A stretch of 12,895 bases of DNA from a virus, in the UHGV virus genome UHGV-0182645; one strand, given 5' to 3'. Below are positions 1,839 to 8,199 of this stretch, one piece after another; the first letter of the stretch is position 1; every line of letters begins with the position of its first letter. The position numbers were made by a program, and so were the translations under genes. The notes below the pieces were generated by a model, which worked only from the letters and a program-made list of their open reading frames with translations, ran no database searches and had not been told where the DNA came from.

Positions 1839-2714
1839 CTAGTCCTGCTGACAATTCAGGAACATAAACGCACGTTTGTCCGTTAAATCCGTAACATAAT
1901 ATTCACGAATACCATTCGGTTTTATGCGGCGAGCATACACAAACTTATGAACTGGCTGGTCGCTGCCATAACTAACCTCAGTGCGAAATTCATCGACCGT
2001 GCTACCATCCTTTTCTGTCTCTTTGCGTATCAGCTTATTGTTCAGAACTGGTTGAGTCTCATCCATTCCGCTAAATGCATCTTGCCCGGTACTATTACCC
2101 CGGTTGCCACGTGGTAAATCCCACGAGAAATAAGTCCCATAGTCTGTAATTACCTGATCCCACGCCCCGGCTTCATCCATATAATGACTACGCTTCCCTT
2201 GGTATGTTACGTCAACCTTACAGGAAAACGTTGGCGCGCTATTACTTGCAGCAGAGGCCGTTGAAGATTGTGTAACACTGCCATTGTTGGCATTTCCATA
2301 GTTCCAGCCATCATGCAACGCTTTAACCCACAGATTAGTCAGGGATAGCGTAACATCATTCCCCAGCGCCTGGCTGATTCGAAGCCTCTGTATCCGACGC
2401 AACCCATACTCATAGGCTTCATCGTCATTAATCACTCGCCCACGTTGAGCGGCTACCACCCCAGATTGCCACGCACGATTAATTTCACGAATAAGATACA
2501 CTTGTGGATCAACTCCGTATCTGTTGTATTCATAGTAAAGGCTCATTGCGCCATGTTGGCTCTGGTATTCATTAGCCCATGATATAACCGCGTTTCTTCC
2601 ATAATCCGCGAGCGCAGAATGACTTGACAGAAGAAGAGCAACGCCAACAGTCTTCAGTAATTTGAATCGGAATAACTTTTTAATAATACGATTGGGAAAT
2701 ATGTTTTTGCTCAC
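1839..2714 (-). CDS. secreted or periplasmic protein of unknown function, 291 aa, with predicted N-terminal signal peptide; moron-like accessory gene
   Basis: 876-nt ORF starting at GTG with GAAAGG about 9 nt upstream. N-terminus has a basic n-region (KNIFPNRIIKKLFRFKLLK), a hydrophobic core (TVGVALLLSS) and an AxA-type cleavage motif (SALA/DYG). AT-rich upstream region at 2715-2830. No family recognised. Confidence 0.6.
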   Translation of the reverse strand: MSKNIFPNRIIKKLFRFKLLKTVGVALLLSSHSALADYGRNAVISWANEYQSQHGAMSLYYEYNRYGVDPQVYLIREINRAWQSGVVAAQRGRVINDDEAYEYGLRRIQRLRISQALGNDVTLSLTNLWVKALHDGWNYGNANNGSVTQSSTASAASNSAPTFSCKVDVTYQGKRSHYMDEAGAWDQVITDYGTYFSWDLPRGNRGNSTGQDAFSGMDETQPVLNNKLIRKETEKDGSTVDEFRTEVSYGSDQPVHKFVYARRIKPNGIREYYVTDLTDKRAFMFLNCQQD

Positions 2715-3649: not shown

Positions 3650-3977
3650 TCACATTAGTAGCTTTGTTAACTCCCTCAATACCAGGTAGAAGAGTAACAA
3701 AAATATTGACGCCAGTATTTGCGTGGTCAATGAAGCGTTCATAAACAGATCAATTAGCATTAATAATTCGAATATAACATCCATGTCATTCACTCCGTTT
3801 AATTTTTAATCTAATGCCAGCAAATGAAGCTGGCCCCCGCACAAAGATTAATGAAAGTCACTTGTCACCAGTGAGGGGATTTATGAACCACATCCCCCTG
3901 AACTGGTGGCCTGTCTGTTTCTCACATTTCACACCCTGCATACAGTTTCCCCCAGGTTATGACTGAGAGGCTTTGTT

Positions 3978-4307
3978 ATGGGCTATAGCAGACTCGACGA
4001 CAGGTACATTGAAGACGATATTTTTCGTGCGCTGTTTCACCAGGAAATGATTAAGCGGGTATCGGAGTATCACTCTGATAATTTCCAGTACACGATAAAG
4101 ATTGATGAAGTATATCGTTCAGACCTTGCAGCCTACAGGGCGTATGGCAATGCAGATTTGCGCTGGGTATTCCGGGTGCTGGTGGGCCATGAGTCAGAAA
4201 TGGAAGAAATGCCCGCCGGGACCACGTTAACTCTTCCTGATGTGGCATGGCTGAGGAACAAGATCCGTGATTACGCGAGCGCGGAACCGGAGATAGAAAA
4301 TGCCTGA
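3978..4307 (+). CDS. small protein with C-terminal LysM-like / phage tail protein X-like segment (tentative), 109 aa
   Basis: GAGAGG at 3965-3970 lies 7 nt before ATG 3978. The C-terminal stretch YRAYGNADLRWVFRVLVGHESEMEEMPAGTTLTLPDVAWL resembles the P2 gpX pattern (..YYG....VL.....P.GT.V.LPDV) from memory. Its stop overlaps the next start. Confidence 0.55.
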   Translation: MGYSRLDDRYIEDDIFRALFHQEMIKRVSEYHSDNFQYTIKIDEVYRSDLAAYRAYGNADLRWVFRVLVGHESEMEEMPAGTTLTLPDVAWLRNKIRDYASAEPEIENA

Positions 4308-5493
4308 TTTCCTGAAAAACCAGGACGGGCGCTATATCACTGACGGCCTGTCCTCTAAGGACTTCACGCGTTTATTCGACCTTATCAGGAAAGAACAAAC
4401 CCGTAAGCGCCGACAAGCTCACCGGACGCTGACGCCAGGTAGACTGAGGAACAAATCCGCCGAAGATATTCTCAAGTTAGGGAAGAAAAAAGGCGGCACG
4501 TTCTTCACGCGAGACGACCTGAAAGGTTTCGAAAAGCTACGGAGTAAAACACGCGAAAAATATGACAGCAAGACGGCTGGCATCACATACGCCCAGCTGG
4601 TGGCATCCAGCCAGGCAATCGATATTAAGCGTGCAAATAACGCCGTGGATGACGGATCTGGTATCAAAAGAGCTACACCCGTATCTCTTCGCCACAACGT
4701 GATTAATATCCGCGTAGAAGCATCGGATATATCCGTCCACCAGCACCATATCGTCCGGATACGCTTTGAAGAATGGGATCAGATGGTCGATGACATCGCA
4801 GAAGACGATAAATCAGCTCTGAAAATCACTAAATCACTGTGCGCTGGGCGGGTGTCTTTCGATTGTGACTGTGGTCGTCATCAATACTGGTATCGTTACA
4901 TCGCTACTGCGGGTAACTTTGCCCTGGCCCCGCCAAAAGAATACGCCTATCCAAAAGTTCGTAACCCTAAGCTACAAGGCGTCGCCTGTAAACACGTGAT
5001 CCACTCAATGACGCGGTTACAGTCCGCTAGTTGGCAAATGAGTATTGCTCGTGCGTTACAAAAGGCCGCAACGCAAATTGCATTTGGTGACGATCGCCGC
5101 CGTACAACCAAACACTTCTCAAAAGAAGACGAGAGGGAGTTTAATCGCAATCGCAACAGTAAAACAAACGTTGACGCTGCCAAGCGCGAATGGAGGCTCT
5201 ATCAGAAGCGCCAGGCAGCTTTAAGTACAAAACTGGCAAAGGACAACGGCAAGATCGACAAGCTACGTGACCAATTGACCAGGGCCAGAAAGTTGTCAGA
5301 CGCACAGAAAAAACGGGCGGCTGCAAAAGAAGCGGCCTTGCAACGTGAGAAACAGAAAAACAAGGAGCTTCAGCAACGCCTTGCCGATCAGTTCGCACTG
5401 AAGAAGCAAGCGTTCATTGATGCGCTTGTCATGGCTGGAACGCCACAAGAACAGGCTGAGAAGATGTTTATAGAGTACGTGAAAAAAGCATAA
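4300..5493 (+). CDS. 397-aa protein with a CxC...CxH (SWIM-like) putative zinc-binding motif and a highly charged C-terminal coiled-coil-like tail; function unknown
   Basis: ATG 4300 overlaps the upstream stop (ATGCCTGA). Motif FDCDCGRHQYW...GVACKHVIH. The last ~100 aa are K/R/E/Q/A-rich with heptad-like periodicity. Confidence 0.7.
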   Translation: MPDFLKNQDGRYITDGLSSKDFTRLFDLIRKEQTRKRRQAHRTLTPGRLRNKSAEDILKLGKKKGGTFFTRDDLKGFEKLRSKTREKYDSKTAGITYAQLVASSQAIDIKRANNAVDDGSGIKRATPVSLRHNVINIRVEASDISVHQHHIVRIRFEEWDQMVDDIAEDDKSALKITKSLCAGRVSFDCDCGRHQYWYRYIATAGNFALAPPKEYAYPKVRNPKLQGVACKHVIHSMTRLQSASWQMSIARALQKAATQIAFGDDRRRTTKHFSKEDEREFNRNRNSKTNVDAAKREWRLYQKRQAALSTKLAKDNGKIDKLRDQLTRARKLSDAQKKRAAAKEAALQREKQKNKELQQRLADQFALKKQAFIDALVMAGTPQEQAEKMFIEYVKKA

Positions 5494-5526
5494 ACCACAC
5501 ATAGCCTAGTAGTTTATGCTGGGCTT

Positions 5527-6255
5527 TCATTTTTTTGAAAGATCAATTCCAGTATTATCAAACAAACTGGAAATATCAGACACCAATTTATTAAAATGCT
5601 TGTCATCATTATAGAATGATGTGCTTTTTATAGCGACTATAAAATCACATAAATCTTGCGGAGATTCAATGCTAACCCCCTTATTTTTATATAGCTCAAT
5701 AATACTGCCAACATCAGTATGCAATAGTTTTATCGCGCCACAAATTTCTCGCTGTTTCGCAACTAGGTCATTAAGTTTATTTTCATTTTCATCTAAGATT
5801 TGTTTTGAATATTTAGCGTCATTGGTTGCTTGATTTAACTTTGTTTTCTTTCTTTGCAATTCTATTCTTTTATCATAATCAGCAACTTCATCTAAATATC
5901 TTATTTCAGTGTATAATTTACTTGTTAGCTTAGATATCTTCAGTGTGAGAATAGGAGCTAACACAGATGCAAATACTCCATAAACAAATGGGATTACAAC
6001 GTGATAAACCCACGGGGATACAATCCAATTATCAAAGAACGGGACATTGCCACCAACAAAAACAATAGATAATGTATATAGGATGTCGTCCTTTGACTTT
6101 AATATAATTAAAATATCCTTCCAGTTAAAAATTAGAAAAGAAATGACAACATATGCAAAAACCTTGTTAAATATTTTATCTTTTATTATTTCAGAAAATG
6201 ATTTTAGTTCTGTTTCATTTATAGACGGATTATCTGTAACTTTTTCTGACATCAT
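5527..6255 (-). CDS. AT-rich membrane protein, 242 aa: two predicted TM segments, a coiled-coil segment and a C-terminal domain; candidate exclusion or abortive-infection effector
   Basis: AGGAT lies 6 nt before ATG 6255. Hydrophobic segments VFAYVVISFLIFNWKDILIIL and VVIPFVYGVFASVLAPILTL, then a charged heptad-like stretch (RIELQRKKTKLNQATNDAKYSKQILDENENKLNDLVAKQ). Hand-counted G+C in sampled 60-nt stretches is about 23-32%, against about 50% in flanking genes. Confidence 0.65.
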   Translation of the reverse strand: MMSEKVTDNPSINETELKSFSEIIKDKIFNKVFAYVVISFLIFNWKDILIILKSKDDILYTLSIVFVGGNVPFFDNWIVSPWVYHVVIPFVYGVFASVLAPILTLKISKLTSKLYTEIRYLDEVADYDKRIELQRKKTKLNQATNDAKYSKQILDENENKLNDLVAKQREICGAIKLLHTDVGSIIELYKNKGVSIESPQDLCDFIVAIKSTSFYNDDKHFNKLVSDISSLFDNTGIDLSKK

Positions 6256-6276
6256 AGCTTATCCTGATTACTTTTA

Positions 6277-6477
6277 TTATGGATAGTTAAAAGATTCAAC
6301 AGGTGATGGTGGCTGAATTGGGTAATGTTTCTTCTCGTACTCCTCAATGAGAAGACTCATAACCTCAAAGAAATCACCTTCCGGAGTATTCATTTCCGGT
6401 TCGTTATCGAACATCGGTTCGACCGCACGCAGTGCGGCCTCATAATCTTGTTCTGTACGGATAGGTTTAATGTTCAT
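6277..6477 (-). CDS. orphan 66-aa ORF resembling only the N-terminal (non-HTH) part of a longer HigA-type antitoxin; possible gene remnant or small partner of the adjacent membrane protein
   Basis: Sequence MNIKPIRTEQDYEAALRAVEPMFDNEPEMNTPEGDFFEVMSLLIEEYEKKHYPIQPP fits the N-terminal consensus I recall for that antitoxin family (..EYE.AL..I..L.D....PEGD..E.L..LIE.YE..HYPI). The ORF stops where the HTH would start. No clear SD; it starts 12 nt after a terminator hairpin. Confidence 0.4.
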   Translation of the reverse strand: MNIKPIRTEQDYEAALRAVEPMFDNEPEMNTPEGDFFEVMSLLIEEYEKKHYPIQPPSPVESFNYP

Positions 6478-6489
6478 TAATTACAAAGG

Positions 6490-6516
6490 AAAGCCCACTT
6501 GCTAAGTGGGCTTTTT
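6490..6516. terminator. bidirectional-capable intrinsic terminator (10-bp stem AAAGCCCACT / AGTGGGCTTT, loop TGCTA)
   Basis: Perfect 10-bp stem. Followed on the plus strand by TTGTATGTGTTTT and on the minus strand by CCUUUGU. Sits 18 nt past the higA stop. Confidence 0.5.
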
Positions 6517-6533
6517 GTATGTGTTTTACTATA

Positions 6534-6872
6534 TCAGGCTGCTTTTTTATTCAGGTTCCGCTGAGAAATAAATTTTTCAGCAGTATTGATACGACTTAAC
6601 TCTTCCTGAACGCGCATATCATTTTCGACTTCCCACAGATCTACTGCGGTCTGAAGATTAATCCAAAAATCTACAGAAGTATCGAATGCTTTTGCCAGGC
6701 GATATGCCATATCCATCGTTAGCTTACGATTATTATTAACAAGAGCACTTACGGTGTTACGATGAACATGAAGTATTTCTGCTAACTCGTTGATCTTCAG
6801 CTCTAACGGCTCCAGGTATTCGTACAGAAGGATATCACCTACGGTCGTCGGTTTTCTGGTTGCCTGTTTCAT
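6534..6872 (-). CDS. higA: HigA-type antitoxin, XRE-family HTH, 112 aa
   Basis: AAGGG lies about 7 nt before ATG 6872. The protein shows the HigA pattern (PGDIL..EYLEPL...INELAEIL.V....VS.L.N....LT.DMA.RL...F..S..FW.NLQ) and lies immediately downstream of the HigB-like toxin gene. Confidence 0.85.
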   Translation of the reverse strand: MKQATRKPTTVGDILLYEYLEPLELKINELAEILHVHRNTVSALVNNNRKLTMDMAYRLAKAFDTSVDFWINLQTAVDLWEVENDMRVQEELSRINTAEKFISQRNLNKKAA

Positions 6873-6942: not shown

Positions 6943-7245
6943 TTAGTATTTGTGAGGGTCGAGATACAAGTCCTCGGCCTTTCCGTTAACCCACTTAAAA
7001 ATTAACCTATATTGCTTATTCACCCTTACTGATGAATAGCCATTTAGCTTCCCTGACAGTTCCTCATACCGATTACCTGGTGGTGATCTTAAATCCTTAC
7101 AGGTAGTTGCGGCATTGATAATGTCCAACTTCCGTGACAATGTCATATGAATATCAGGAGGTATCTTTCTATGTGGTGTTGAAAATTCAAAAAAATCATC
7201 AAGCCACGCATCCCTGAAATCCTTTATGTTAATTTTTTTGGTCAT
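6943..7245 (-). CDS. higB: HigB-type toxin (RelE/ParE superfamily, killer-protein family), 100 aa
   Basis: C-terminal signature YEELSGKLNGYSSVRVNKQYRLIFKWVNGKAEDLYLDPHKY matches the HigB killer-protein motif (W/YR..F.F.NGDA..L.Y.DYH) from memory. Toxin-first order with the HTH antitoxin downstream. Confidence 0.85.
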   Translation of the reverse strand: MTKKINIKDFRDAWLDDFFEFSTPHRKIPPDIHMTLSRKLDIINAATTCKDLRSPPGNRYEELSGKLNGYSSVRVNKQYRLIFKWVNGKAEDLYLDPHKY

Positions 7246-7284: not shown

Positions 7285-7318
7285 ACTATAGCGCACTGTT
7301 GCACTGTGCGCAAGTGCA
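7285..7318 (-). promoter_or_regulatory. putative higBA promoter with overlapping operator-like repeats (-10 TATAGT; GCACTGT x2 plus inverted GTGCA)
   Basis: On the minus strand, TATAGT (plus coords 7285-7290) sits about 40 nt upstream of the higB ATG. Immediately upstream is GCACTGT-T-GCACTGT-GCGCAA-GTGCA (7293-7318), a typical arrangement for autoregulated TA operators. The -35 is weak (TTGCGC). Confidence 0.35.
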
Positions 7319-7407
7319 TTTTATGGATTCCCCCTCCTTCATCCAAAATCACAATCTCCCGAAAATCTTCCTTTCGATACCTGACAGATCGACCTTTGAG
7401 GATGCTT

Positions 7408-8199
7408 ATGGGCCGTTTTGACGAATGGTTTGCTGACGATGCAAACCTGGCAAGTAAGGAGTCAGAACATGACAGCACGCAGAGAGAAACGCCAGCGCCG
7501 ATTGAAGCGAATGCAGGAGGTGCGCCGGAACATGGCAATACCGGTTCGGATTCATTCAGCATTCTGGAAGAGCAACCCGCCGCCAAAGCTGATAGCCATG
7601 ATAATTTTGCTGATAGCAACGCTGGCCTTACTCCGGATGCTGCCGAATCAGATATAGCCATACTTCCACCTTCCCTGGCTGGCAGAGAACCAACTCCACA
7701 GCTAAAAGCACGCTATAACGGGCATAAAGCCTTTAATGACCAAATCCGCGCAGACTGGATGCTGATTATTGAATCCAGCCCAGACGCGTTTCAGGCTCTC
7801 TTATATCGACCAGATGTTGGCACATATGGGGTAGTCAGCGACGAAACAGGAGAAGAGTCATTCACTGAACTGGATAACAACCAACGCGAACTGACTTACC
7901 AGGAACCTGAAATCGTTTATGTGCTGGATAACCCTGACGGGCGTGACTCTTTCCATGCGATTGACGCAGACGGTGAGCAGGATGGCTTAACCGATGATGT
8001 TCTGATTCTGCGTATTGCAGCAAATAACGTCCCCGTCGGCTCAATTCTTGAATGGAATGAAGAGATGGTAAACGGCGTAGCCCGCCGCTGGTGGTACGTG
8101 CACCGTATTTTTAGCTACGGCACACAGCATGTTGGTTCGCTTTACTACTGCATACCTGCCAGGAATTTTGATACGACTCAAAACGGAGTGATCGAATGA
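7408..8199 (+). CDS. hypothetical protein, 263 aa, with an acidic low-complexity N-terminal half; first gene of a four-gene coupled operon
   Basis: GAGG at 7398-7401 lies 6 nt before ATG 7408. The track ORF starts at GTG 7306, but that would run through the divergent higBA promoter. Stop overlaps the next start (ATGA). Confidence 0.65.
   Translation: MGRFDEWFADDANLASKESEHDSTQRETPAPIEANAGGAPEHGNTGSDSFSILEEQPAAKADSHDNFADSNAGLTPDAAESDIAILPPSLAGREPTPQLKARYNGHKAFNDQIRADWMLIIESSPDAFQALLYRPDVGTYGVVSDETGEESFTELDNNQRELTYQEPEIVYVLDNPDGRDSFHAIDADGEQDGLTDDVLILRIAANNVPVGSILEWNEEMVNGVARRWWYVHRIFSYGTQHVGSLYYCIPARNFDTTQNGVIE

What the first reader, a model, noticed from the sequence alone, without database searches (positions are those of the whole stretch)
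5527..6255. Strongly AT-rich two-TM plus coiled-coil protein in a minus-strand accessory island: candidate new exclusion or abortive-infection effector
Seen in sequence: this 242-aa gene is compositionally foreign, with hand-counted G+C of roughly 23-32% in sampled 60-nt stretches against about 50% in neighbouring genes. It has its own SD. It encodes two hydrophobic helices near the N-terminus, a charged heptad-like segment and a C-terminal domain of about 70 aa that I cannot assign to any family. It sits, with higBA, on the opposite strand between two plus-strand phage-like operons, which is how phage morons and defence cassettes are typically inserted. Inference: small membrane-anchored proteins in such positions (SieB-like, Abi-like) often act in superinfection exclusion or abortive infection. 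I have no direct evidence of function.
Basis: partly seen in the sequence, partly recalled or inferred. Interest (0 to 1): 0.7.

Follow-up and report, generated by a model that had tools for sequence, protein, structure and literature searches.

The report
Hypervariable membrane-protein moron in P1-like phage-plasmids
The flagged gene is a real, AT-rich gene for an inner-membrane protein of an unannotated family, carried as an add-on gene by D6/P1-like plasmid prophages, and its allele is swapped again and again between otherwise near-identical phages, which fits a phage-exclusion or defence gene although no function has been shown.

Summary
The gene at 5527-6255(-) encodes 242 aa at 29.5% G+C (flanking tail genes 49%). 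It has an AGGA ribosome-binding site, two hydrophobic helices, a long charged helix and an unassigned C-terminus.

The window is a D6-like, P1-type phage-plasmid. In P1, tail genes 25 and 7 lie 3 nt apart. Here an antisense cassette sits between them: higB, higA, a 66-aa HigA remnant and the target ("X").

X matches no Pfam, NCBIfam or PADLOC model. It belongs to PHROG 8191 (function unknown). Only 41 cluster representatives among 1.84 billion proteins match it.

The main new result is allele swapping. In three separate P1-like lineages the flanks are 96-100% identical while X alleles share only 33-63% identity. The membrane module is conserved (about 68%) and the cytoplasmic helix is not (17-29%).

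X also occurs alone in the same slot, as an inserted gene in P2-like and lambdoid prophages, next to a PD-T7-4-like gene and a cytosine methyltransferase (possible R-M module), and as a lone chromosomal gene. It often follows a toxin-antitoxin module, but the module type varies and the adjacent HigA decays while X stays intact.

Best reading (about 0.4): an autonomous, prophage-expressed exclusion or abortive-infection protein. This rests on circumstantial evidence only.

The parts
5527..6255 (-). Target gene X: 242-aa predicted inner-membrane protein, PHROG 8191, function unknown
   Evidence: ORF. G+C 0.295. Full-length match to phrog_8191, E 8.5e-122. No Pfam, NCBIfam or PADLOC hit. AlphaFold mean pLDDT 81 with a 28-sequence alignment.
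6262..6265 (-). AGGA ribosome-binding site, 6 nt before the ATG
   Evidence: Read directly from the sequence.
6100..6162 (-). Codons 32-52: first hydrophobic helix, with a conserved polar kink (S39, invariant N44, W45)
   Evidence: Kyte-Doolittle scan. Invariant columns in the family alignment. Helix break at residue 44 in the model.
5941..6012 (-). Codons 82-105: second, strongly hydrophobic transmembrane helix, with invariant P89 and near-invariant P101
5680..5940 (-). Codons 106-192: long charged helix (18 K/R, 14 D/E), the most variable part between alleles (17-29% mean pairwise identity over residues 121-200, versus 43% for 101-120)
5530..5679 (-). Codons 193-242: small helical C-terminal domain with no assignable family (32-38% identity between alleles)
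5482..5526 (.). Convergent terminator-like hairpins between gene 25 and X. The plus-strand hairpin is at 5503-5525 followed by a T-run. The minus-strand hairpin is AGCATAAAC..GTTTATGCT followed by TTTTT.
   Evidence: Plus strand from the scan. Minus strand read from the sequence.
5450..6305 (.). Swapped hypervariable segment. Nucleotide identity to other D6-like elements drops to about 45-75% here, and flanks are 96-100% identical beyond about 100 nt from the edges.
   Evidence: Sliding-window identity against L012, L015 and L017. Breakpoint inside orf72.
6277..6477 (-). 66-aa remnant of a K-12-type HigA (D6 orf72): the first 57 codons are kept and the HTH domain is lost
   Evidence: PADLOC PD-Lambda-2_B positions 1-65, E 2.5e-16. 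Alignment to D6. Full-length D6 orf72 matches PDB 5IFG HigA, E 8.7e-8.
6488..6516 (.). G+C-rich hairpin between higA and the 66-aa ORF, with a poor T-tract on the minus strand
6534..6872 (-). higA antitoxin (TIGR02607, HTH_3)
6943..7245 (-). higB toxin (PF05015, HigB-like/RelE)
4300..5493 (+). P1 gene 25-like tail protein, left border of the insertion slot
7408..8199 (+). P1 gene 7-like tail protein, right border of the slot. The likely start is 7408; the listed ORF runs from 7306.

Best explanation
X is a functional add-on gene (moron) of D6-like and other P1-like phage-plasmids.

**The protein.** It is predicted to be an inner-membrane protein with both ends in the cytoplasm. The N-terminal membrane module is conserved: an amphipathic helix, a kinked first hydrophobic helix with an invariant Asn, a short loop helix, and a proline-containing second transmembrane helix. 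The cytoplasmic long helix and small C-terminal domain evolve fast.

**Proposed mechanism.** I propose that X is expressed from the resident prophage and works on its own as a phage-exclusion determinant. The variable cytoplasmic part would recognise a component of an infecting phage or rival phage-plasmid. The conserved, probably oligomeric, membrane module would then compromise the membrane (abortive infection) or block DNA entry.

**What is shown.** The gene, its composition, the insertion site, the allele swapping, the domain-wise conservation pattern, its independence from the neighbouring HigA, and its occurrence in other prophage insertion sites and defence neighbourhoods.

**What is inferred.** The topology, oligomerisation, expression in the lysogen, and the whole functional claim.
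For: - **Insertion.** P1 has genes 25 and 7 only 3 nt apart in one late operon. D6-like elements carry a 1.6-2.0 kb antisense cassette there.
- **Real coding gene.** pN/pS is 0.33 within the window-type allele. The model reaches pLDDT 81. The family has 41 cluster representatives at E < 1e-3.
- **Allele swapping in three lineages.**
  - D6-like: seven allele classes share 30-63% amino-acid identity, while divergence is confined to 5450-6305 inside 96-100% identical DNA.
  - L023 / L035 / Klebsiella: HigBA is 97-100% identical but X is 49-93% identical.
  - L045 / L046: tail genes are 97-100% identical but X is 49% identical.
- **Conserved membrane module, variable tail.** Residues 21-60 average about 68% pairwise identity, against 17-29% for residues 121-200. 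N44 and P89 are invariant across 28 members.
- **Autonomy.**
  - X is alone in the 25/7 slot in L045 and L046.
  - It is a lone gene in an Enterobacter chromosome.
  - The adjacent orf72 is truncated or frameshifted while X stays intact.
- **Other contexts.**
  - 12 nt after a PD-T7-4-like DUF4145 gene, on an island with recombinases.
  - An inserted gene in a lambdoid prophage and in a P2-like prophage between gpD and ogr.
  - Near an AAA_13 ATPase and integrase fragments.
  - After a cytosine methyltransferase.
  - Near a WYL regulator.
- **Composition.** X is AT-rich in every context, 0.28-0.39 G+C; hosts are 0.44-0.50 in seven of the nine loci checked, and three loci are themselves AT-rich (0.28-0.36).
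Against: - No experiment and no homology to any characterised exclusion or defence protein.
- Long charged helices drift quickly even without selection. Low identity in residues 121-200 is therefore not proof of an arms race.
- The neighbourhood evidence covers about 20 loci and was not scored against a background.
- No convincing promoter was found directly upstream of X.
- The bulk of the protein is predicted to be cytoplasmic. That fits sensing inside the cell but is atypical for classical injection blockers.
Confidence: 0.4

Rival explanations
1. X is a superinfection-exclusion protein in the strict sense. It sits in the inner membrane and blocks genome entry of related P1/D6-like phages, for example by engaging their ejected tail or tape-measure proteins or a host membrane factor. 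The allele classes would then define exclusion groups among competing phage-plasmids.
For: - X is the constant occupant of one slot across diverged P1-like phage-plasmids.
- Several alleles coexist in the population. Among PLSDB plasmids 71 are window-type and about 31 enterobacterial plasmids carry other alleles. Among 5,426 complete E. coli genomes, 51 carry the window type and 24 carry other alleles, always on plasmids.
- The conserved membrane module could bind a conserved host or phage membrane partner.
Against: - The predicted periplasmic loop is only about 28 residues, and the most variable part is predicted to be cytoplasmic.
- Relatives also sit in P2-like and lambdoid prophages and in non-phage islands. 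A P1-specific role is therefore unlikely to be general.
Confidence: 0.2
2. X is the third, accessory component of a HigBA-type toxin-antitoxin defence cassette. The layout would resemble PD-lambda-2, where a HigB-like toxin and a HigA-like protein need a third gene for defence. X would tune or trigger the toxin-antitoxin pair rather than act alone.
For: - The order HigB(PF09907) - K-12-type HigA - X recurs in five element types whose HigB and HigA share only 22-54% identity between lineages. These are D6-like L018/20/24/25, L023, the E. hormaechei plasmid L035 (with L027), the Klebsiella IncFIB plasmid L034, and L041/L049.
- That HigB matches PD-Lambda-2_A (E 4.7e-42) and the HigA matches the N-terminal part of PD-Lambda-2_B.
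- PD-lambda-2C is required for defence but not for neutralising the toxin (PMC9519451).
Against: - The toxin-antitoxin partner is interchangeable: PF09907 HigBA, PF05015 HigBA in D6 and the window, and TacAT in L030 and L048.
- The K-12-type HigA next to X is truncated or frameshifted in the window type, L017, L022 and L048 while X stays intact.
- X occurs with no toxin-antitoxin module at all.
- X has no PD-Lambda-2_C match, and the HigA lacks the peptidase domain.
Confidence: 0.12
3. X is a cargo gene unrelated to phage exclusion. It could be a membrane protein that alters host envelope physiology, or one that aids plasmid or prophage persistence. Its divergence would then reflect weak constraint on a helical stalk plus frequent recombination in an AT-rich segment.
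For: - Nothing ties X to a defence phenotype.
- pN/pS of 0.33 shows looser constraint than gene 25 at 0.08.
- Coiled-coil-like segments drift fast.
- Many of the neighbours are toxin-antitoxin or maintenance genes.
Against: - Sharp, repeated replacement of just this gene inside near-identical backbones in three lineages is hard to explain without selection for diversity.
- The membrane module is well conserved, with invariant polar and proline residues, so it is more than an anchor.
Confidence: 0.2
4. X is the toxin of a toxin-antitoxin pair whose antitoxin is the upstream HigA-like orf72 (the 66-aa ORF in the window).
For: The gene order is antitoxin-like HTH protein followed by a small membrane protein, with 21-90 nt between them.
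Against: - orf72 is 93-100% identical across elements whose X alleles share only 33-58% identity with the window allele.
- orf72 loses its HTH domain or is frameshifted while X stays intact.
- orf72 is intact wherever its own PF09907 HigB is present, so HigB is its partner.
- X occurs alone.
Confidence: 0.04

Closest known systems
Phage morons that encode membrane exclusion or abortive-infection proteins (lambda/P22 SieB, P22 SieA, T4 Imm, lambda RexB, HK97 gp15) - compared from general knowledge
   Same: X is a small prophage-borne gene, transcribed against or apart from the structural operon. It has deviant base composition and its own terminator, and it encodes an inner-membrane protein.
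   Different: X shows no sequence or fold similarity to any of them. Its architecture of a two-helix membrane module, a helix of about 85 residues and a C-terminal domain matches none of them. No phenotype is known.
PD-lambda-2 (Vassallo et al. 2022, PMC9519451): HigB-like A, HigA-peptidase B, third gene C
   Same: Relatives of the window carry a PD-Lambda-2_A-type HigB, a HigA whose N-terminus matches PD-Lambda-2_B, and then X as a third gene. In PD-lambda-2 the third gene is needed for defence only.
   Different: The window lacks the A-type HigB. Its B-like gene is a 66-aa stump with neither HTH nor peptidase domain. X is not homologous to PD-Lambda-2_C.
Pore-forming two-transmembrane-helix effectors of defence systems (CBASS 2TM / SLATT-type) and two-helix P-loop cation channels (KcsA, NaK, MthK, viral Kcv)
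   Same: The layout is alike: amphipathic N-terminal helix, first membrane helix, short loop helix, second membrane helix, then a long cytoplasmic helix. Twenty of the 22 Foldseek PDB rows are pore domains of such channels. One of 28 family members hits PADLOC 'Effector 2TM' at E 4e-4.
   Different: All Foldseek E-values are 2.8 or higher, with TM-scores of 0.10-0.16. There is no Pfam Ion_trans_2 or SLATT hit even for the isolated membrane module. The 'VGG' motif after the loop helix is not conserved in the family.
PHROG 8191 (with weak links to phrog_13369 and phrog_22645)
   Same: Full-length match, positions 1-242 of 242, E 8.5e-122. X is a member.
   Different: The PHROG carries no function, so membership explains nothing.

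Membership tests
Phage moron (extra gene inserted between genes that are adjacent in a related phage) | The flanking genes are adjacent in a relative | tested here: met
   P1 genes 25 and 7 are 3 nt apart in one late operon. In the window they are separated by about 1.9 kb of antisense genes.
Phage moron | Base composition differs from the surrounding genome | tested here: met
   G+C is 0.295 against 0.49 for the flanking genes.
Phage moron | Own promoter and terminator | tested here: inconclusive
   Terminator-like hairpins lie downstream. The consensus scan found no clear promoter directly upstream of X.
Sie / Abi membrane proteins (SieB, SieA, Imm, RexB and PADLOC Abi models) | Sequence homology to a characterised family | tested here: not met
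   No PADLOC hit at E <= 1, no Pfam or NCBIfam hit, and only unknown-function PHROGs.
Sie / Abi membrane proteins | Exclusion or abortive-infection phenotype in a lysogen | not testable with these tools
   Requires phage challenge assays.
PD-lambda-2 tripartite system | HigB-like A component present | tested here: not met
   The window's HigB is PF05015 and has no PADLOC hit. The A-type HigB is found only in relatives such as L018, E 4.7e-42.
PD-lambda-2 tripartite system | B component with HTH and peptidase domains | tested here: not met
   Only positions 1-65 of 402 match, and the ORF ends after 66 aa.
PD-lambda-2 tripartite system | C component homologous to PD-Lambda-2_C | tested here: not met
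   X has no PADLOC match.
Type II toxin-antitoxin pair formed by orf72/66-aa ORF and X | Obligate co-occurrence and co-variation of the two partners | tested here: not met
   orf72 is conserved or decaying while X varies and stays intact, and X occurs alone.
Two-helix P-loop cation channels (Pfam Ion_trans_2) | Profile match and a conserved selectivity-filter motif | tested here: not met
   No Pfam hit on whole proteins or on isolated membrane modules. The motif is not conserved. Foldseek E-values are 2.8 or higher.
PHROG 8191 | Full-length profile match | tested here: met
   E 8.5e-122, positions 1-242 of 242.

The most novel reading that the evidence does not exclude
X founds an undescribed class of single-protein, membrane-acting phage-immunity determinants. 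A conserved two-helix module, possibly channel-like, would be gated by a hypervariable cytoplasmic stalk and sensor. Its allele classes would set exclusion specificities among competing P1-like phage-plasmids and other temperate phages. Its repeated attachment to toxin-antitoxin operons would be a way to keep it expressed and retained.
Probability: 0.15. Interest if true: 0.75.

Novelty: new variant of a known kind. Interest (0 to 1): 0.55.

Why it matters
D6-like phage-plasmids occur in about 1.4% of complete E. coli genomes (75 of 5,426), and also in Salmonella and Shigella. Their accessory genes are almost unstudied.

This gene is the fastest-changing element of an otherwise conserved tail region. 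It belongs to a family without any annotation. It recurs in insertion sites of P1-, P2- and lambda-like prophages and next to known defence genes.

If it is an exclusion or abortive-infection gene, it would add a compact single-gene system with natural allele series to the defence catalogue. Such a series is ideal for mapping specificity. It would also help explain competition between phage-plasmids that spread resistance genes.

If it is not, the allele swapping itself still needs an explanation.

Tried and rejected
- **Profile searches.** Pfam, NCBIfam and PADLOC gave nothing for X, either for all 28 family members or for isolated membrane modules. The only hits were coiled-coil noise such as ZapB, LmuB and JetC.
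- **PDB sequence search.** The only hit was a spurious one at E 0.0034 to a sialic-acid-binding protein over the helical segment.
- **First AlphaFold run.** A three-sequence alignment gave an unusable model with pLDDT 43.
- **Homologue searches.**
  - The word-indexed search with the family profile added only one sequence.
  - The genome-collection scan with the broad alignment failed for lack of a conserved stretch.
  - The same scan with the narrower alignment found one locus.
- **Heptad test.** Not significant.
- **Promoter scan.** No convincing promoter for X.
- **Literature.**
  - No paper on D6 orf73 or on a HigBA-plus-membrane-gene cassette was found.
  - The search meant to show which HigA domain binds HigB did not answer that question.
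- **Rejected readings.**
  - orf72 as antitoxin with X as toxin.
  - X as a tail or assembly gene.
  - X as a holin or spanin: it has no lysis-gene neighbourhood and the stalk is predicted to be cytoplasmic.
  - X as a canonical K+ channel.

Full report
**1. The observation**

The ORF 5527-6255 on the minus strand exists and encodes 242 aa. Its G+C is 0.295, with codon positions at 0.39, 0.26 and 0.23. The two flanking tail genes are at 0.49 and the window overall is at 0.46. An AGGA motif lies 6 nt before the ATG, and hairpins followed by T-runs lie downstream.

Hydropathy analysis gives two clear hydrophobic segments, residues 32-52 and 82-105. With a 28-sequence family alignment, AlphaFold gives a confident model with mean pLDDT 81. 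It has helices at 12-28, 31-43, 45-53 and 58-65, one uninterrupted helix over 81-192, and two short C-terminal helices.

Lys and Arg residues flank the N-terminal side of the first helix and the C-terminal side of the second. I therefore infer that both termini are cytoplasmic and that a loop of about 28 residues faces the periplasm. This is an inference, not a test. Heptad periodicity in the long helix is weak, since 277 of 2000 shuffles reach the same score. 'Coiled coil' remains a guess.

It missed a 66-aa ORF at 6277-6477 between higA and the target.

**2. Where the window comes from**

The region is about 89% identical to phage D6, a P1-type plasmid prophage. It is 98-99.7% identical to many plasmids of about 90 kb from E. 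coli, Salmonella and Shigella.

The plus-strand genes are homologues of P1 genes mat, 26, 25, 7, 24, 6, 5 and hrdC. In P1 itself, genes 25 and 7 are 3 nt apart within one late operon. The minus-strand block of higB, higA, the 66-aa ORF and X is therefore an insertion into a tail operon, which is the classical layout of a moron.

**3. The 66-aa ORF and the toxin-antitoxin genes**

HigB belongs to PF05015 and HigA to TIGR02607. The 66-aa ORF corresponds to the first 57 codons of D6 orf72. That gene encodes a 119-aa protein resembling E. coli K-12 HigA (PDB 5IFG, E 8.7e-8), with an N-terminal domain followed by an HTH domain. It also matches the first 65 positions of PADLOC PD-Lambda-2_B.

The window and D6 are nearly base-for-base identical up to about position 6305 and then diverge completely. 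The HTH domain was therefore lost at a recombination breakpoint.

In several relatives (L018, L020, L024, L025, L023, L035, L041 and Klebsiella plasmids), orf72 is preceded by its natural partner. This is a PF09907 HigB, which matches PD-Lambda-2_A at E 4.7e-42. Where that HigB has been replaced by another toxin-antitoxin module, orf72 tends to decay. It is truncated in the window type, frameshifted in L017 and L022, and reduced to a 57-aa remnant behind TacAT in L048. So orf72 is a relic of a K-12-type higBA, not a partner that X needs.

**4. The X family**

X has no Pfam, NCBIfam or PADLOC match. It is a full-length member of PHROG 8191, which has no known function.

A word-indexed search of 5.8 billion protein clusters found only six hits, which fall into two alleles of 95-98% and 58-61% identity. 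An exhaustive HMMER scan of 1.84 billion cluster representatives found 41 proteins at E < 1e-3. All are about 200-320 aa and share the same layout.

Across 28 members, N44 and P89 are invariant. S39, W45 and P101 are nearly invariant. The motif around the first helix is conserved (F/Y-x-Y-x3-S-x4-N-W-x2-I-x-I-x2-K-S-K-x-D-I). The membrane part is thus more than an anchor.

Fold searches found nothing significant. As a curiosity, 20 of the 22 Foldseek PDB rows are pore domains of two-helix P-loop cation channels, and the helix order in the model parallels KcsA. However, the E-values are 2.8 or higher, the putative filter motif is not conserved, and no Ion_trans_2 or SLATT profile matches. I treat this as a lead only.

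**5. The key comparative result**

I fetched 23 IMG/VR loci that carry an X relative and mapped all window proteins onto them.

- *D6-like lineage.* HigBA, orf72 and the tail proteins are 93-100% identical to those of the window. X falls into classes of 97-98%, 58%, 47%, 43%, 41% and 37% identity (35% in the more divergent L023). The classes are 30-63% identical to each other. At the DNA level the divergence is confined to about 5450-6305, and the flanks are 96-100% identical beyond about 100 nt from the segment edges. This pattern requires replacement by recombination from a diverse pool. Mutation in place cannot produce it.
- *Second lineage* (L023, the E. hormaechei plasmid and Klebsiella plasmids). 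HigB and HigA are 97-100% identical, but X is 49-93% identical.
- *Third lineage* (L045 and L046). Tail proteins are 97-100% identical, but X is 49% identical.

Variation is uneven along the protein. Residues 21-60 average about 68% pairwise identity, residues 81-120 about 50%, residues 121-200 only 17-29%, and residues 201-240 about 35%. Within the window-type allele pN/pS is 0.33, against 0.08 for gene 25. X is therefore constrained, but loosely.

In PLSDB, 71 plasmids carry the window type (90% identity or more) and 85 carry more distant relatives. Of these 85, most are Klebsiella plasmids (54 Klebsiella records in all), and the ones inspected carry a partial copy, cut by IS903B in the locus examined. 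Among 5,426 complete E. coli genomes, 75 carry X, always on a plasmid.

**6. Other contexts**

- X is alone in the 25/7 slot of L045 and L046.
- It lies between gpD and ogr in a P2-like prophage.
- It lies on the opposite strand between replication and nin-type genes of a lambdoid prophage.
- It starts 12 nt after a DUF4145 gene that matches PD-T7-4, on an island with recombinases.
- It lies near an AAA_13 ATPase and integrase fragments.
- It follows a cytosine methyltransferase and a 603-aa gene.
- It lies near a WYL regulator.
- It follows TacAT.
- It is a lone gene between housekeeping genes in an Enterobacter chromosome.
- It is AT-rich in every context, 0.28-0.39 G+C; seven of the nine loci checked are at 0.44-0.50, while three (L026, L040, L053) are themselves AT-rich at 0.28-0.36.

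This distribution is typical of prophage accessory and defence-island genes. I did not score it against a background.

**7. Mechanism**

The data support an autonomous gene whose conserved membrane module is joined to a fast-changing cytoplasmic stalk and end domain. By analogy with defence proteins that pair a conserved effector with a variable sensor, the most likely reading is as follows. X is a prophage-expressed exclusion determinant. Its cytoplasmic part detects an invader, and its membrane module then damages the membrane or blocks entry. I put this at about 0.4.

The rivals are:
- A strict injection block directed at related phage-plasmids, at 0.2. The small periplasmic exposure argues against it.
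- A third component of HigBA-type cassettes in the manner of PD-lambda-2, at 0.12. The recurrent HigB-HigA-X order across HigBA pairs of only 22-54% identity argues for it. The interchangeable toxin-antitoxin partners, the decaying HigA and the solitary copies argue against it.
- A function unrelated to defence, at 0.2.
- A toxin paired with orf72, at 0.04. The comparisons above largely refute it.

**8. Novelty**

No publication on this gene was found. The kind of element, a moron-encoded membrane protein that probably acts in exclusion, is known. The family, its architecture and its allele-swapping behaviour in the gene 25/7 slot are not described. I rate it as a new variant of a known kind, with interest 0.55. 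It is a well-founded candidate with a clear experimental path, but it has no functional proof.

Noticed in passing
window 6277-6477 (-); L017, L022, L048: The 66-aa ORF is a K-12-type HigA cut after 57 codons at a recombination breakpoint near 6305. The same orphan antitoxin is frameshifted in L017 and L022. In L048 a 57-aa remnant survives behind a TacAT module. It is intact wherever a PF09907 HigB precedes it. Whether the stump still neutralises a K-12-type HigB, for example that of a rival phage-plasmid or of the host, is unknown.
   Followed up: partly
window 5503-5525 (+): A terminator-like hairpin with a T-run lies directly after gene 25 on the plus strand. In P1 this point is inside a single late operon (26-25-7-24-6-5). 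Gene 7 and the genes after it may therefore need their own promoter or antitermination in D6-like elements.
   Followed up: no
L024 5974-6704: This X allele is a chimera: the N-terminus resembles one allele class and the C-terminus another. It is broken into ORFs of 147 and 83 aa. This is evidence for recombination inside the gene and for occasional loss.
   Followed up: partly
L034 (Klebsiella IncFIB plasmid NZ_CP132738.1) 4153-5363: The higB - higA - X cassette also occurs on large non-phage Klebsiella plasmids, with HigBA 97-100% identical to that of phage-plasmid L023. There X is cut to 137 aa by IS903B. Most of the 54 Klebsiella plasmids in PLSDB that carry an X relative show a similar partial match to residues 18-147, and a few match only 18-101 or 18-70.
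   Followed up: partly
database cluster of the window protein: Many deposited copies of X are 'partial' proteins at the ends of contigs of about 55 kb. Short-read assemblies apparently often break inside this AT-rich gene.
   Followed up: no
window 1839-2714 (-): This is a simB-like gene. Only its C-terminal 127 aa match D6 (83%), whereas the whole length matches L025 (98%). The neighbouring 2551-2850 patch has G+C 0.36. It appears to be a second variable accessory locus in the window.
   Followed up: no
window 3650-3793 (-): A 47-aa, very hydrophobic ORF lies in a low-GC patch (0.39) between mat and gene 26, at the position of D6 orf77. It could be a small membrane peptide.
   Followed up: no
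window 7306-8199 (+): The listed ORF for the gene 7 homologue starts at a GTG at 7306. In most relatives that upstream stretch contains a stop codon, and the PHROG match starts at residue 34. The real start is therefore probably the ATG at 7408.
   Followed up: partly
family alignment A3: One of the 28 family members matches the PADLOC CBASS 'Effector 2TM' model at E 4e-4. I did not identify which member. All other PADLOC hits are coiled-coil noise.
   Followed up: partly
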